DNA from: Eledone cirrhosa
Lineage: Eukaryota
NCBI GenBank assembly: GCA_964016885.1
Contig: OZ024749.1
Coordinates: forward strand, 44,950,001-45,014,000
Direction of reading: 5' to 3'
DNA length: 64,000 nt
A program made the translations under genes and the position numbers. The notes below the pieces were generated by a model. It did not search any database, was not told the DNA's origin, and worked only from the letters and a program-made list of their open reading frames with translations. Positions 3,588-62,674 of this stretch are shown here, one piece after another (position 1 is the stretch's first letter; each line of letters opens with the position of its first letter).

Positions 3588-3770
3588 ATTTAATATAGAA
3601 TGGCTTCTACATGATTAGAACGGTTTCATCCGGGAGAAATCTCTTGATGATTTCTCCCGAATGAAACAGTTTTAGTCCTGTAGAAGCCATTTCTATATTA
3701 AATATTTATACCCTCTATGTATTGAGTAACTTAATTATTGTGGTTACCCCCGATTGAACCCGGGATAAAC
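3588..3770 (+). mobile_element. TA-embedded fold-back element with decayed HHR core (family shared with 21187-21370)
   Basis: Inverted arms 3588-3651 and 3649-3703 pivot at ttgatga-tttc..gaat-gaaac. Unique tail to 3770 matches the reverse complement of 21187-21260. Confidence 0.75.
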
Positions 3771-4351
3771 ATATATATATATAGAGATAGATAGATAGAT
3801 AGATAGATAGAGAGAGAGAGAGAGAGAGAGAGAGAGAGAGAGAGAGAGAGAGAGAGAGAGAGAGAGAGAGAGAGAGAGATGAGGATATTGCAAGTTTTAA
3901 ACTAGTAAGACAAATTATGCAGCAGAGTACACGATACTTGAGAGAGTAGAGTGTAAATGTATTAGACAGTTGGTGCCCGACGGCTGAGCTTTTTCCCTTT
4001 CGGCTCAGTCTGGAATTTTGCTGCCGAAACTGCAAGAGCTCAACCGTTGCGCTGCGACTCGCTAACATATATTTCACCCAGCTGAAATTGAGTACCACCT
4101 GTAGCTGTGACTAATGCAGCAACCAACTGAGGCTCTCTACAGTTGGAGACTTGAACTCTCAGTCACTTAACGCCACGGAAACGAGGATAAGTTCCGTGTT
4201 TTGTACAGATATTTCTTTCTTATATTTTCATAAATATTGGGCTAAGGCGTCTCCGAATATATTGTTTAAAAATTGGATAAAATTATTATTGTTTTTCTTC
4301 CCCAGCTTAGCTCTATTTAGTCTAGCCTATGAGCTATATATATTCCAGCAA

Positions 4352-4432
4352 AGACATTACCTAGTCTCACATAGGCATTATGTAGGCTCACATAGACATT
4401 ACATAGGCTCAGATAGACATTTACTAGGCTCA
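4352..4432. repeat. 21-bp minisatellite, about 4 copies
   Basis: Unit approximately agacattacataggctcacat. Confidence 0.85.
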
Positions 4433-4467
4433 CGTAATTGAATGCGTTTTTTTTATTAATACGGTAG

Positions 4468-4545
4468 ATTGTGGTTTGAAGGAGATTCAGCTGCTATTTC
4501 TAGCAGATTGGTGTGATCATGTACAGGCTTTCTTTGTGACTCCAT
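4468..4545 (+). repeat. Old dispersed repeat with a gctatttctagc core
   Basis: Related motifs at ~11370, ~11590, ~24410, ~43795, ~44195 and ~59110, in both orientations. Confidence 0.55.
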
Positions 4546-5907
4546 TGACAAGATATTAAATTTTGGTGGGAATTTTCTATGTAGCTTGTGTTATAAATTT
4601 TAGTGACATATATATAGACATTTATAACTCACCCCCGCTCACTCTCTCTCTCTGTCTCTCACAAACACATACACACACAGACAGACAGACACACATTCTG
4701 GTAAACAGTTGTCCACAAAGATAGGTTACGGGACAACCAGTTGAGTGGCCGGGACTCCCTGTTCTGTTTCAGATTACCCTGCTTCACGTTTGTCATTTAA
4801 ACCTAACTAATATACAAACTCATCTATCTCCTACGATAGGTGACGTTTTTATTTTGTTGTTCTTGGTTGTGATGATGGCGGCTGAGGTGGTAGTGGTGGT
4901 GGAGGTGATGGTGTGTAGCTTCAAGGCTGTCTTGATTGAGTAAATTTATGACGAAAGTTATACCCCTGTAACTTTCCCAACTTTTTTTTTTATAAATTTG
5001 GGAGTGCATTGTCTCACGAGCCCAACCTGTTTCAAAGCGGATAAGGTGTGCTCTGAAATTTAGTTCCTATTACTATCCACCCTAACGCCTTCACAAAGGG
5101 TTCCACGCAGAAATTACAACGAGCAGGTATACTTTCAGCAAAGCATATCCAAAAGAGAAGCCTTTTTCAAATGAAAAATATAAATAATATGAAAAGATTT
5201 CGCTCCTTCTGCCCTATTTGCTGTTATTCTGGCATGTATATATATATATATATATATATATATATATATATATATATATATATATATATATATATATATA
5301 TATATATATATATATGTATATATATATATATGTGTGTGTGTGTGTGTGTGTGTGTGTGTGTGTGTGATAACCGGATCTCTTTTAATATTGGTTTTAGTGG
5401 TTGCAAATATACTATGGCTGATTAAAATAAGTGAATTTCATGATTCCTATTTGATTAAAGGTCTTGTAAATCAAGGAAAGCCTGTGGCGAAAGAAATAAA
5501 GGACAGCTCCAATTTAACTCTGAACATCTACAACTACATAGATGTTAATATATATGAGAAGGTAATTTTCAGCATTAAGCAGGCGTCACAGAAATATTGG
5601 CGAAAAAATTTCATTAGCTAGTACTACTGAATTTAACCCCTCCTACGTGGAAGTCAGAATTTTCGTGTAAATTGTTGCTTTGGAAGGGGAATGGTTTGTC
5701 ATTGGACACGTATCCAATCTTAGTAAAGCTCACAACGACGAGTATCTGGCTCTACAGAAGCAAATAAAGGAGAAGGAATCAGGCCATGTGTGCCTCAAGA
5801 TGTTTGATGAAACCCGATGTGAAATCTGCTTACTTTTCCTCCCTGAAACTAATAGAATATTAAGAATAACTATATCCTCGGGAGTTCTAAGCTATGTTCA
5901 TCATATA

Positions 5908-6389
5908 TGGCAGTATCGGTAGAGAGTCGGACACCATGCTTTCCAGTATAGTTACGTCCCTTTACGGTCTGAGTTCAAATCCCGTGGGGGTTAACTTTGC
6001 CTTTCATCCTTACGGGGTCGATAAAATAAAGTACCAGTAATATACTGGTATAATTGCTGGCCTTGTGCCAAAAGTAGAAACAATTATATAAGGGTGGTGA
6101 ATTGGCAGTATCGGTAGAGGGTCGGACATGCTTTCCAGCGTAGTTACGTCCCTTTACGATCTGAGTTCAAATCCCGCCGAGGTTATATATTTTTTTTTAG
6201 GCGGTGGATTGGCAGTATCGGTAGAGGGTCGGACGCCATGCTTTGACGCATAGATTTACGGCCCTTGCCATTCTGAGTTCAAATCCCGCCGAGGCTAAAA
6301 TTGCCTTTTATCCTTACGGGGTCGATAAAATAAAGTACGAGTAACACACGGAAATTTGCTGGCCTTGTGCCAAAAGTAGATACAATTAT
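5908..6389 (+). mobile_element. Cluster of three SINE family 1 copies (5908-6087, head only 6092-6185, 6200-6389)
   Basis: A-box-like tggcagtatcgg, B-box gagttcaaatcc, body gcctttcatccttacggggtcgataaaataaagtaccag, tail ...aaagtagaaacaattat. Confidence 0.92.
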
Positions 6390-60315: not shown

Positions 60316-60481
60316 CCGTATTTCTCGGCGTCGAAAACACGACTTTTTCCCTAAAATAAGTCTAAAAAATCACCATGGGTCCTGGAGGCCGAAGGTTATT
60401 TTTTATTTTTTTTCAAATTTTTGGCTGTCAAAATTAGGGTGTGTCCTCGAGAACGAAACCTCTTCGGCGCCGGAAATACGG
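60316..60481. mobile_element. Tc2/pogo-like MITE, 166 bp
   Basis: TA|CCGTATTTCTCGGCGTCGAA ... TTCGGCGCCGGAAATACGG|TA, i.e. TIRs with a TA duplication. Confidence 0.88.
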
Positions 60482-60989
60482 TAAACGTTTTCCCCACTCA
60501 TCTAGTTAGACTAATGCTAATAGGTGAATCACAGTGTGGATGAGATATTTTATCGGAATTTTCCTGGATATTATTACGGTTCCAGATACATTTATTTCAA
60601 ATGTTATTGTCATAGATATTTATATAATTATATATTTTTAACATTTCATTCATGTTGAGCATTTGTCTCTACTCAGATGTGTAAATGTTCGCTTATCATA
60701 ACTCAAGATAGTGTTTGATATGCTCTTATTTCACACATTGTGTACTACTACTACTAATACTACTACTACAACTACTACTACTACTACCACAAACTAGATT
60801 ATAAAGAGTCAGAACAAATACCGCAAGTCATTGTTTTCCGACATTCTAACGGATCTGCTCAATCAATCGCCCCTCTTTTTTTGTTGTTGTTACACCTCAC
60901 ACCTATGTAGGTTTAGATGGCCCCCTCCAAGGTTATATCTCATTGGAGATTTCTTGGTTATCTAATGAGAGGGACCCCAGTCCTATCAT

Positions 60990-61133
60990 CTCATTTCTAC
61001 AGCTGAGTAAACTGGAGTAACGTGAAATAAAGTGTCTTGCTCAAGGAAACAACACATTACCCGGTCCGAGAATTGAACTCACAACTTTCGATTGCAAGCC
61101 GAATGCTCTAACCACTAAACCATGCGCCTTCAC
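60990..61133 (-). mobile_element. CORE-type SINE (family 2)
   Basis: gtgaaataaagtgtcttgctcaaggaaacaac plus A and B boxes in reverse. Confidence 0.82.
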
Positions 61134-61149
61134 TTTCCCTACTTAGTAA

Positions 61150-61760
61150 ATAAGTATTTCTAATTTAGGTACAATGCTAGCAATTTCGAAGAATTTATAC
61201 GTTGATTAAATCAACTCCAGTACTTGGTACTTCATTTTACCAAGCCCAGATGGATAGTGCAATTTTCGACCTTGGTGGAATTTGGTCTCAGAAAGTAAAG
61301 ACCCATAAGAAATAATTCAATCATTTCGTCCGTCTCTATGAATTCTGACAAACCGTCACATTATGAATGATAAGGATACTGGCTTCTAACTTAGACATGA
61401 AGCCGGCTATTGTTTATTATGGAGGGGAATTAGTACGTTATTTTATAGATTCAGAAATGCTGGAACATAAAGCTAAACTCCATGTGTTTAGAACTTCGTT
61501 TGTAGCGAGCCGAAACAAATGCTAACCGAGATTGCGAATTCATCAATAAGGATTACTTTACCAATGATTGCATTCATTTAGAAATTATGAATTAATTCAA
61601 CATAAAAATAACTACAGCATTAAATCGAATGAAGTGCATAACTATTACATATTTTAATGAGCCCAAAACGATGGAAGTTGAAGAGAGCCACGGTGGAATT
61701 TGAACAAGATACCGCAGGCAATTTCTCCGACTCTCATACGTCTATGTCTAACCTTACCAC
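61150..61760 (-). mobile_element. Several old degenerate SINE family 1-related copies
   Basis: Recurrent tttctaa..aggtacaa, tggtacttcatttt and ggtggaatttgaac remnants. Confidence 0.55.
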
Positions 61761-62424
61761 GAATCATGCTACTGGTATAAGAGACAGGTGTCATTGCTCT
61801 CATTGATAATCTGTTGGGTATTAGTCGTTTGATATGACGAATTTCGTTTATTCAATTATCAGGATTATATTTGTAATCTATTTGTATCGTGAAAGCTATT
61901 TACTTCTAAAGAAACATCAGCACTTTGCGTGATAAACTATATGACGAATATTAAAATGACTGATCTATCCACATTTATATGCGAATATATATATATATAT
62001 ATATATATATATATATATATATATATATTCATATATAGATATATGTAATTTCCTATTAAGCAAGAAAGTGCCTAGTTATGTAAATATAGACGTAGAGTTT
62101 TGATACACAGATTTATATTGATTCTATGTTATAGGAGCTTCCTCGTTGGTGATTGAACAAATCGCTATGATGAGCTCCGATGCAAATTATCCGCTCAGGT
62201 TTCATCACCTCAGTTGAGCAGTTATATAGGAAGCAAGATCAGAAAATTACGCTGGCATCTATTCCTCTGGCTTTGAACTGATCTAAGTTTTCAACTACCC
62301 ACACATGCACACACACACCCGTATATCCCAATATACTATATATATATATATATATATATATATATGGAGGAGGTTATAGTTCACTTGAAGCATTGTGTAA
62401 TGAGGTATAAACGTTTGTATATGT

Positions 62425-62674
62425 ATAATAAAGCCAAACAATGCAGGTATGGACATAGAATAAAGAATGCAAATGCAAAAGTTATTGTTGACAATTAGTC
62501 TTTTACCTTAGATTTATTTAAATGTCCTTAATTTTCGAGATAATATCTCGAAGAAGAGATATTATCTCGAAAATTAAGGACATTTTAATAAATCTAAGGT
62601 AAAAGACTAATTGTCAACAATATCTTTTGCATTTGCCTTCTATGTCCATACCTGCATTGTTTTGACTTTATTAT
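62425..62674. mobile_element. ~250 bp fold-back palindrome pivoting on an HHR core remnant
   Basis: Arms of about 120 bp with a 6-bp spacer (62550-62555). The right arm reads GAAGA-A-GAGAUA U UAUCUC-GAA-AAUU-A|AGG. Confidence 0.88.

What the first reader, a model, noticed from the sequence alone, without database searches (positions are those of the whole stretch)
3588..62674. Fold-back inverted duplications repeatedly pivot at the ribozyme core
Seen: at 3588-3703, 21258-21370, 27900-28101, 42250-42377, 57501-57684 and 62425-62674 two arms diverge with 3' ends facing outward. The junction lies within or a few nt 5' of CUGAnGA/stem II in five unrelated families. The arms overlap in sequence (true duplications, unlike non-overlapping L1 twin-priming inversions), and short arms tend to end at AT-rich microhomology with the TA tract. 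Established: PLE insertions often carry an inverted pLTR at the 5' end. Inference: reverse transcription stalls or switches template at the HHR structure. Speculatively, both target ends are primed on two RNAs paired through palindromic stem III.
Basis: partly seen in the sequence, partly recalled or inferred. Interest (0 to 1): 0.75.

Follow-up and report, generated by a model that had tools for sequence, protein, structure and literature searches.

The report
Mirror-image Penelope retroelement stubs at hammerheads
These are short dead tail ends of Penelope-like jumping genes lying head to head, a known insertion form; here most of them turn round at their small ribozyme motif, but similar copies from other DNA turn round elsewhere, so the ribozyme is not the general cause.

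Summary
The six palindromes are real. A scan found 10 head-to-head fold-backs in 7 families. They look like 5'-truncated Penelope-like element (PLE) ends: inverted arms, a tail on one arm, (TA)n targets, type I hammerhead (HHR). This form is published.

By hand-set ends, 9 of 10 long arms end within the HHR against 1 of 10 solo copies (Fisher p=0.001; 0.008 conservatively). The core is misread at 27900 and weak at 62425.

The link is not general. In 56 fold-backs from metagenome contigs, long arms end a median 77 nt upstream of the core, at family-specific short palindromes; 1 of 56 ends near it. That set cannot show ends inside the core. There the tail lay on the arm with the shorter 5' reach in 7 of 15 resolvable cases, which snap-back of one cDNA cannot give.

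Best model: two cDNAs primed on both target strands from PLE's two start sites, joined at the nearest self-complementary spot, here HHR stems. RNA pairing through stem III is unsupported. Raw reads were not examined. This scan noted ends near HHRs in other genomes (unchecked).

The parts
3588..3767 (.). A1 fold-back: short arm 3588-3641 (-), 7-nt spacer, long arm 3643-3703 (+) plus 64-nt tail to TA tract; variant core TTGATGA at 3645
21189..21370 (.). A2 fold-back: long arm (-) with 69-nt tail 21189-21257, ends at -5; short arm (+) from 21320
14815..14954 (.).
20817..21008 (.). C1 fold-back: centre at hairpin 5' of GAAAC-stem III-GUC; 80-nt tail on left arm
33185..33379 (.). C2 fold-back, same centre (hairpin with 3-nt loop), tail on left arm
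57255..57456 (.). C3 fold-back, same centre, tail on left arm
16311..16432 (.). C4: antisense tail joined to a sense arm that starts at the hairpin loop; arms do not overlap (deleted fold-back or non-overlapping inversion); not counted among the 10
27838..28101 (.). E fold-back: arms 27900-27997 and 28004-28101; inferred 62-nt tail 27838-27899 (single copy); junction at 5' base of inferred stem II; 7-bp hairpin stem III
42165..42377 (.). F fold-back: long arm (-) ends at core position +2, 85-nt tail 42165-42249 (tail sequence also at 58174-58252); short arm from loop II
57501..57770 (.). G fold-back: long arm (-) 57501-57610 with complete HHR, ends at -9; short arm (+) from 3' strand of stem II; inferred 86-nt tail 57685-57770 on the short arm (single copy)
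62365..62674 (.). H fold-back: arms 62425-62549 and 62550-62674; weak HHR remnant at the centre; inferred 60-nt tail 62365-62424 on the arm with the shorter 5' reach (single copy)
22..148 (-). F solo copy, tail-less, runs 56 nt past the core
28324..28510 (-). D solo copy with complete minimal HHR (core 28453, palindromic stem III), runs 57 nt past the core
42003..42116 (-). D solo copy cut at the 5' base of stem II (+7): the one solo that ends inside the HHR
27715..27792 (+). D solo copy starting at +51, tail to tail with the copy at 28324-28510 (63/64 identical)
28123..28290 (-). G solo copy with complete HHR (core 28222), runs about 68 nt past the core
22900..23062 (-). G solo copy, core 23001, runs 61 nt past the core
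21557..21664 (+). G-related solo copy with a complete HHR (8-bp stem I, palindromic stem III); 5' end not determinable
14600..14756 (+). G-related solo copy, core 14647, runs 47 nt past the core
24598..24694 (-). B solo copy, starts at -34
42490..42599 (+). B solo copy, starts at about -35

Best explanation
The palindromes are 5'-truncated ends (pLTRs) of Penelope-like retroelements inserted into (TA)n tracts. Inferred mechanism: the endonuclease nicks both target strands; reverse transcription starts on both ends, once from the distal start site (arm with tail) and once from the proximal one (arm without). Both cDNAs are antisense copies of the same sequence, so they can join only where the 3' end of one finds a complementary spot on the other; flaps are trimmed and gaps filled. 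The pivot is therefore the self-complementary spot nearest to where the short cDNAs end. In this window the cDNAs are 100-180 nt long and end at the hammerhead, whose core region and stem II supply the pairing, perhaps helped by pausing; in other families the pivot is a short palindrome 45-105 nt upstream. Shown: architecture, one-sided tail, local clustering, pivots elsewhere in other loci. From papers: two start sites, cleavage and extension of both strands. Inferred: twin priming in vivo, the joining step, why these families stop at the HHR.
For: One arm has a tail in all 10 window fold-backs (several copies for A, B, C, F; single copy, inferred, for E, G, H) and in 40 of 56 metagenome fold-backs by homology (counted by eye; the other 16 lack flank, homologues or a clear tail). 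Tail on the arm with the shorter 5' reach: 7 of 15 resolvable metagenome cases (L013, L016, L034, L035, L071, L092, L094) against 8 on the longer arm (by eye); in the window 2 (G, H) against 5. Tail-less arms end where solo copies end (F, G). Arms of one locus are mostly closer to each other than to other copies (G 99% vs 86-95%, B 95% vs 74-82%, A1 91% vs 83-86%). Metagenome pivots recur at short native palindromes near -45, -78, -82 and -105; 30 of 56 spacers are 10 nt or less. In vitro an anole PLE cleaves and extends both strands, starts at two sites that bound the tail, is predicted to be a dimer, and does not need HHR cleavage (PMC11167929).
Against: No PLE protein or full element was identified in the window; raw reads and the rest of the genome were not examined. 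Tails of E, G and H rest on one copy each. Junction microhomology is only 0-5 nt by eye and weak at A1, A2 and G. Independent choice of start sites should give some tail/tail and tail-less pairs, which are rare, so the two primings must be coupled in an unknown way. Within-locus arm identity is not higher for C3 or A2 and can also come from gene conversion. An extrachromosomal hairpin trimmed on either arm would also explain the tail pattern.
Confidence: 0.5

Rival explanations
1. Reverse transcriptase stalls at the folded hammerhead and the single target-primed cDNA folds back on itself.
For: Window: long arms end at -2, -5, +3, +2, -9, +2 and three at loop II; tail on the long arm in 5 of 7 informative copies; one solo cut at stem II; tight junctions. 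Earlier scan notes report ends near HHRs in other genomes (unchecked).
Against: 7 of 10 solos pass the core by 34-68 nt. 55 of 56 metagenome long arms pass it by more than 15 nt (set blind to ends inside the core). Tail on the short arm in 7 of 15 and in G and H cannot come from snap-back of one cDNA.
Confidence: 0.2
2. The template RNA itself begins, or is processed, just 5' of the HHR in these families (start site, splice site or trimming), so cDNAs run off there; the pivot marks the RNA 5' end. Compatible with twin priming.
For: B fold-back and both B solos begin at -33 to -35; metagenome families share 5' boundaries between solos and fold-backs; in D. virilis the intron end maps to the 5' end of helix I (PMC4209133) and the start site lies 46 nt before a 75-nt intron (PMC2377424); earlier finding e1-7858061 reads ends at -8 to -12 this way (unchecked).
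Against: Window ends scatter from -9 to loop II; several lie inside the core; solos of F and G run 47-68 nt further.
Confidence: 0.15
3. Self-priming on an antisense RNA template makes the head-to-head palindrome (Arkhipova and co-workers 2013).
For: Proposed in PMC3846280 for rotifer PLEs from palindromes at inverted junctions; tight junctions are common (30 of 56).
Against: Does not by itself explain the fixed tail-less end shared with solo copies; in vitro the enzyme uses a sense template and a nicked DNA primer (PMC11167929). No strand-specific RNA was examined here.
Confidence: 0.07
4. The clustering is geometry and hand assignment: arms are 40-180 nt, the HHR covers about 50 nt of that range, and cores in C, E and H were placed with the junction in view.
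For: With a 35% target, 6 of 7 families gives only p=0.009 and 5 of 7 p=0.056; small sample; C copies may share an origin.
Against: Solos from the same window behave differently (1 of 10; p=0.001, or 0.008 without E and H and with C once); the stem III motif is independent of the palindrome.
Confidence: 0.15
5. Two RNAs paired through palindromic stem III prime the two target ends.
For: Minimal PLE HHRs are thought to work as dimers (PMC4209133, PMC6765202); D and G have palindromic stem III; L013 and L071 short arms start in the stem III palindrome.
Against: A, C, E, F have hairpin stem III of 4-7 bp; D has no head-to-head copy here; palindromic-stem copies pivot a median 77 nt upstream; Naiads lack canonical HHRs yet carry inverted copies (PMC8557442).
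Confidence: 0.05
6. Assembly or library fold-back artefact.
For: Raw reads were not examined; F arms are identical over 55 of 55 positions.
Against: Other arms differ by 1-14% with indels; one-sided tails; arms stop at element ends instead of running into flanks; same form in 56 of 124 metagenome loci and 0 of 120 viral control loci and in print.
Confidence: 0.02

Closest known systems
Insertions of endonuclease-bearing Penelope-like elements with inverted 5' pLTR and optional tail (PMC3846280; PMC8557442 Fig. 2 legend; PMC2377424)
   Same: Head-to-head inverted truncated copy, palindrome at the junction, tail on one end, AT-rich or (TA)n targets, type I HHR near the 3' end
   Different: No ORF left; arms only 40-125 nt; tails 35-86 nt against 30-40 nt; junction mostly inside the HHR, which the passages I read do not report
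Anolis Poseidon (PAc) in vitro system (PMC11167929)
   Same: Two 3' end points bounding a tail; AT-rich target; both strands used
   Different: The paper does not model inverted products; HHR cleavage was dispensable there
Minimal and variant PLE hammerheads (PMC4209133)
   Same: D and G fit: extra base after A9, palindromic stem III; pairs of HHRs 100-700 bp apart on opposite strands were noted in Schistosoma
   Different: A, C, E, F have longer hairpin stem III like the fungal and protist variants; A has U at position 3; B has a half core
L1 twin-priming inversions (recalled; no paper read)
   Same: Both target strands primed, joined by microhomology
   Different: L1 arms copy non-overlapping parts of one RNA and end in poly(A); here the arms overlap (except C4)
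Animal non-LTR retrozymes (bioRxiv 10.64898/2026.07.22.740005)
   Same: Non-coding, HHR-bearing, PLE-related
   Different: Retrozymes are head-to-tail tandem arrays; these are dispersed inverted pairs

Membership tests
EN+ Penelope-like element insertion | ORF with telomerase-like RT and GIY-YIG endonuclease | tested here: inconclusive
   Longest stop-free frame in the window is 281 aa; no protein family search completed (one search failed); no RT or EN identified; stubs are non-coding ends
EN+ Penelope-like element insertion | Type I hammerhead motif in the terminal repeat | tested here: met
   Complete motifs in D and G copies; 3' halves in A, C, E, F; weak in H; half core in B. Rfam gathering search found none
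EN+ Penelope-like element insertion | Inverted 5'-truncated copy, head to head | tested here: met
   10 cases
EN+ Penelope-like element insertion | Tail on one end only | tested here: met
   35-86 nt; several copies for A, B, C, F, single copy for E, G, H
EN+ Penelope-like element insertion | AT-rich or microsatellite target | tested here: met
   TA-rich letters follow nearly all ends; the window is rich in TA tracts (11,010 of 64,000 bases masked), enrichment not tested
EN+ Penelope-like element insertion | Target site duplication | tested here: inconclusive
   Cannot be read in TA tracts
Hammerhead ribozyme (active) | Self-cleavage after UH | not testable with these tools
   Most copies carry core changes; minimum-energy folds give stem II or III only in part
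L1-type twin-priming inversion | Non-overlapping arms, poly(A) end | tested here: not met
   Arms overlap in 10 of 11 inverted cases; C4 is the exception
MITE / fold-back DNA transposon | Fixed palindromic unit amplified whole, with equal terminal inverted repeats | tested here: not met
   Centres differ between A1 and A2; one-sided tails; solo arms exist. C shares one centre in 3 copies, so C alone is not excluded
Non-LTR retrozyme | Head-to-tail tandem units each with an HHR | tested here: not met
   No tandem arrays of these families in the self-blast

The most novel reading that the evidence does not exclude
PLE insertion is an obligatorily two-ended reaction: a dimeric enzyme primes both target strands from the two start sites, and in this lineage the hammerhead serves less as a ribozyme than as the structure at which short cDNAs stop and pair, so that ending inside it yields a palindrome and passing it yields a solo copy.
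Probability: 0.2. Interest if true: 0.7.

Novelty: new variant of a known kind. Interest (0 to 1): 0.38.

Why it matters
How PLEs make tandem and inverted insertions, and what their hammerheads are for, are called open questions in PMC8557442 and PMC11167929. The insertions themselves are ordinary debris. Two points are useful. The side on which the tail lies separates twin priming from snap-back and can be counted in any PLE-rich genome; the small count here favours two primings. The pivot position is family-specific and falls on the HHR in this window only, which argues against a general role for HHR stalling or stem III dimers and can be tested in the existing in vitro system.

Tried and rejected
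No whole genome is held for this window. Rfam at gathering thresholds: no HHR, one tRNA hit. The repeat finder was swamped by microsatellites. Sequencing runs: three contig sets of one sample hold 0.37-0.54 of the words of 27200-28900 and may be the source; 17 small shares are no evidence; no reads were laid, so neither the artefact check nor the genome-wide junction map was done. The viral-contig scan gave mostly chance matches (27 of 120 with stem II of 3 bp or more, against 125 of 152 in metagenomes) and served only as a negative control. A loose tail-motif count gave 34 one-sided, 4 both, 7 none, 11 too short of 56; I relied on the homology table instead. The 9-of-17 tail test included L045 and L090, later dropped because the other arm's flank is cut off. 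One search (arms of 20 or more) listed 59 loci; (40 or more) 56; the -26 value of L023 is mis-trimmed (pivot about -45). In one search the projected core for the G short arm is about 6 nt off; the tail length is taken from coordinates. Contig ends 3-52 nt upstream of the core (23 of 152 matches) were not used: read length could explain them. CTGAGGA at 28014 rejected as core. Family B as a type II or permuted HHR rejected by eye (no stem III-UH; PMC10085705 passages). Splice-site reading of window junctions: no consistent AG, left as a rival. Tail-to-tail pairs (D, I) are a different arrangement and were not counted. PMC5785218 is not held. Look-ups of earlier findings by first word set, place and sequence found nothing.
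Full report
Setting. The window is AT-rich (32% GC) and full of microsatellites; it looks like animal non-coding DNA. No genome is held. I recall the ~190-nt SINE-like family as octopus-like; no call tests that.

Observation. Self-blast and an ungapped palindrome scan (0 hits in each of 20 shuffles) confirm the six sites and add four head-to-head fold-backs (B at 14850; C at 20897, 33265, 57335): 10 copies, 7 families. 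Arms overlap and are 86-100% identical. Alignments show that one arm always runs on for 35-86 nt to a TA tract. This tail recurs in several copies for A, B, C and F and is inferred from one copy for E, G and H. Tail-less arms of F and G end where solo copies end.

Ribozyme assignment. D and G solo copies carry complete type I motifs. A GAAA-stem III-UH descriptor, independent of the palindrome, hits within 40 nt of the centre in A (1 of 2 copies), C (3 of 3), E, F and G, not in B or H; background is 3.1-3.5% per direction. E's CTGAGGA has no room for stem II, so the core is projected. A reads TTGATGA, F's longer copy reads CAGAAGA, H keeps only GAAGA, C lacks the core in all copies, and B has a core with no GAAA behind it. 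Stem III is a 4-7 bp hairpin in A, C, E, F and palindromic only in D and G.

Clustering in the window. With ends set by hand, long arms end at -2, -5 (A), -33 (B), about +3 (E), +2 (F), -9 (G), +2 (H) and at the stem II hairpin (C, three times): 9 of 10 inside -12..+35. Of 10 solo copies with a usable 5' end, 1 ends there; 7 run 34-68 nt past the core and 2 stop 3' of the motif. One more solo (21557) had no determinable end. Fisher p=0.001; without E and H and with C once, p=0.008. Against a plain geometric null (35% target) 6 of 7 families gives p=0.009 and 5 of 7 p=0.056. The window boundaries were chosen after seeing the data. So the link is probable, not proven.

Independent test. 56 of 124 loci hold a head-to-head fold-back with arms of 40 nt or more; 0 of 120 viral control loci do. 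Long arms end a median 77.5 nt upstream of the core (range -4 to -282); 1 of 56 ends within -15..+35, and 8 of 56 short arms start there. The pattern demands a full HHR, so long arms ending inside the core cannot appear. Ends at -15..0 could appear: 1 of 56 there against 3 of 4 core-retaining long arms in the window (p=0.0005). Of 182 stem III motifs in these loci 24 lacked an exact core, most by point change, and by eye none was a pair with both arms cut inside the HHR. Pivots recur at family-specific short palindromes near -45, -78, -82 and -105, partly shared with solo copies. The loci are one HHR class, not de-duplicated, and taken as PLE from anatomy.

Mechanism. In 40 of the 56, one arm alone extends 15 nt or more as a tail shared with other loci (by eye). 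If one target-primed cDNA folded back on itself, the second arm would be a subset of the first, and the tail would always lie on the arm with the longer 5' reach. In 15 resolvable cases it lay there 8 times and on the shorter arm 7 times; in the window 5 and 2, the 2 resting on inferred tails. This fits two separately primed cDNAs. The anole PLE protein cleaves and extends both strands, starts at two sites that bound the tail, is predicted to be a dimer, and inserts RNA equally with a dead HHR (PMC11167929; I read parts 1-2 of 4). Two antisense cDNAs can pair only at self-complementary spots, which explains tight junctions (30 of 56 spacers of 10 nt or less) at native palindromes, and here at HHR stems. 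Why the window's fold-backs stop at the HHR while its solos pass it remains open: pausing, an RNA 5' end near stem I, or survival of only those short cDNAs that find a partner. These steps are inference. By eye, the F and H junctions contain short templated inserts linking the core GAAGA with GAAA.

Known work. Head-to-head inverted pLTRs, junction palindromes, overlap and one-sided tails are described for rotifer PLEs, with antisense self-priming proposed (PMC3846280; passages and Discussion). Inverted truncated copies, tails and (TA)n bias also hold for Naiads, which lack canonical HHRs (PMC8557442; passages). PLE HHRs, opposite-strand pairs and the intron end at helix I are in PMC4209133 (parts 1-2 of 4). 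I also saw passages of PMC6765202, PMC10085705, PMC2377424 and part 1 of 5 plus passages of bioRxiv 10.64898/2026.07.22.740005. Searches turned up no paper that maps inversion junctions against the HHR or proposes twin priming for PLEs; subscription journals are mostly missing, PMC5785218 is not held, and I opened no supplements, which may bear on this. Earlier notes of this scan describe HHR-centred PLE palindromes and ends 8-12 nt upstream of the core in other genomes; they are unchecked leads.

Verdict. Real, and a known kind of insertion. The HHR pivot is probably real in this window and not a general PLE rule. Raw reads and the genome-wide map remain to be done. Interest 0.38.

Noticed in passing
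27715-27792 (+) and 28324-28401 (-): Two 98% identical family D ends lie tail to tail round a TA tract that later took the E fold-back and a G copy; could be the other outcome of priming on both strands.
   Followed up: partly
41433-41918; 1189-1446: Three 96-97% identical ends of a LINE-like family, tail to tail round TA tracts; one frame ends in a C2H2-like motif then a stop; RTE-like by recall; no hammerhead.
   Followed up: partly
16311-16432: Family C copy with non-overlapping inverted arms (antisense tail joined to an arm from the hairpin loop).
   Followed up: partly
42304-42323 and 62549-62556: Junctions hold short templated inserts that link the core GAAGA and the GAAA motif through 3-nt microhomology (by eye).
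   Followed up: no
14815-14954, 24598-24694, 42490-42599: Family B keeps CUGAnGA-N-GGAC in 4 of 4 arms with no GAAA behind it, and all copies start at -33 to -35; resembles the half cores mentioned for Naiads.
   Followed up: partly
28600-28660 (-), 28795-28870 (+), 54355-54408 (-): Further hammerhead-like motifs in single copies, untested.
   Followed up: no
e.g. 5908-6087, 22317-22510, 35746-35930, 58705-58893, 62760-62950; three in tandem at 55508-56044: About 190-nt SINE-like family, some 15 copies, 75-97% identical.
   Followed up: no
12504-13800: 50-nt minisatellite, about 26 copies, 99% identical.
   Followed up: no
59046-59429: 193-nt tandem duplication, 98% identical.
   Followed up: no
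10212-10319, 25994-26115, 61014-61134: Related tRNA-derived pieces; Rfam tRNA hit at 61066-61122 just above threshold.
   Followed up: no
L007, L050, L065, L068, L028, L085, L087, L102: 5' ends of solo and fold-back copies in metagenome families pile at a CTGCAG-like hexamer, which is both a palindrome and splice-acceptor-like.
   Followed up: partly
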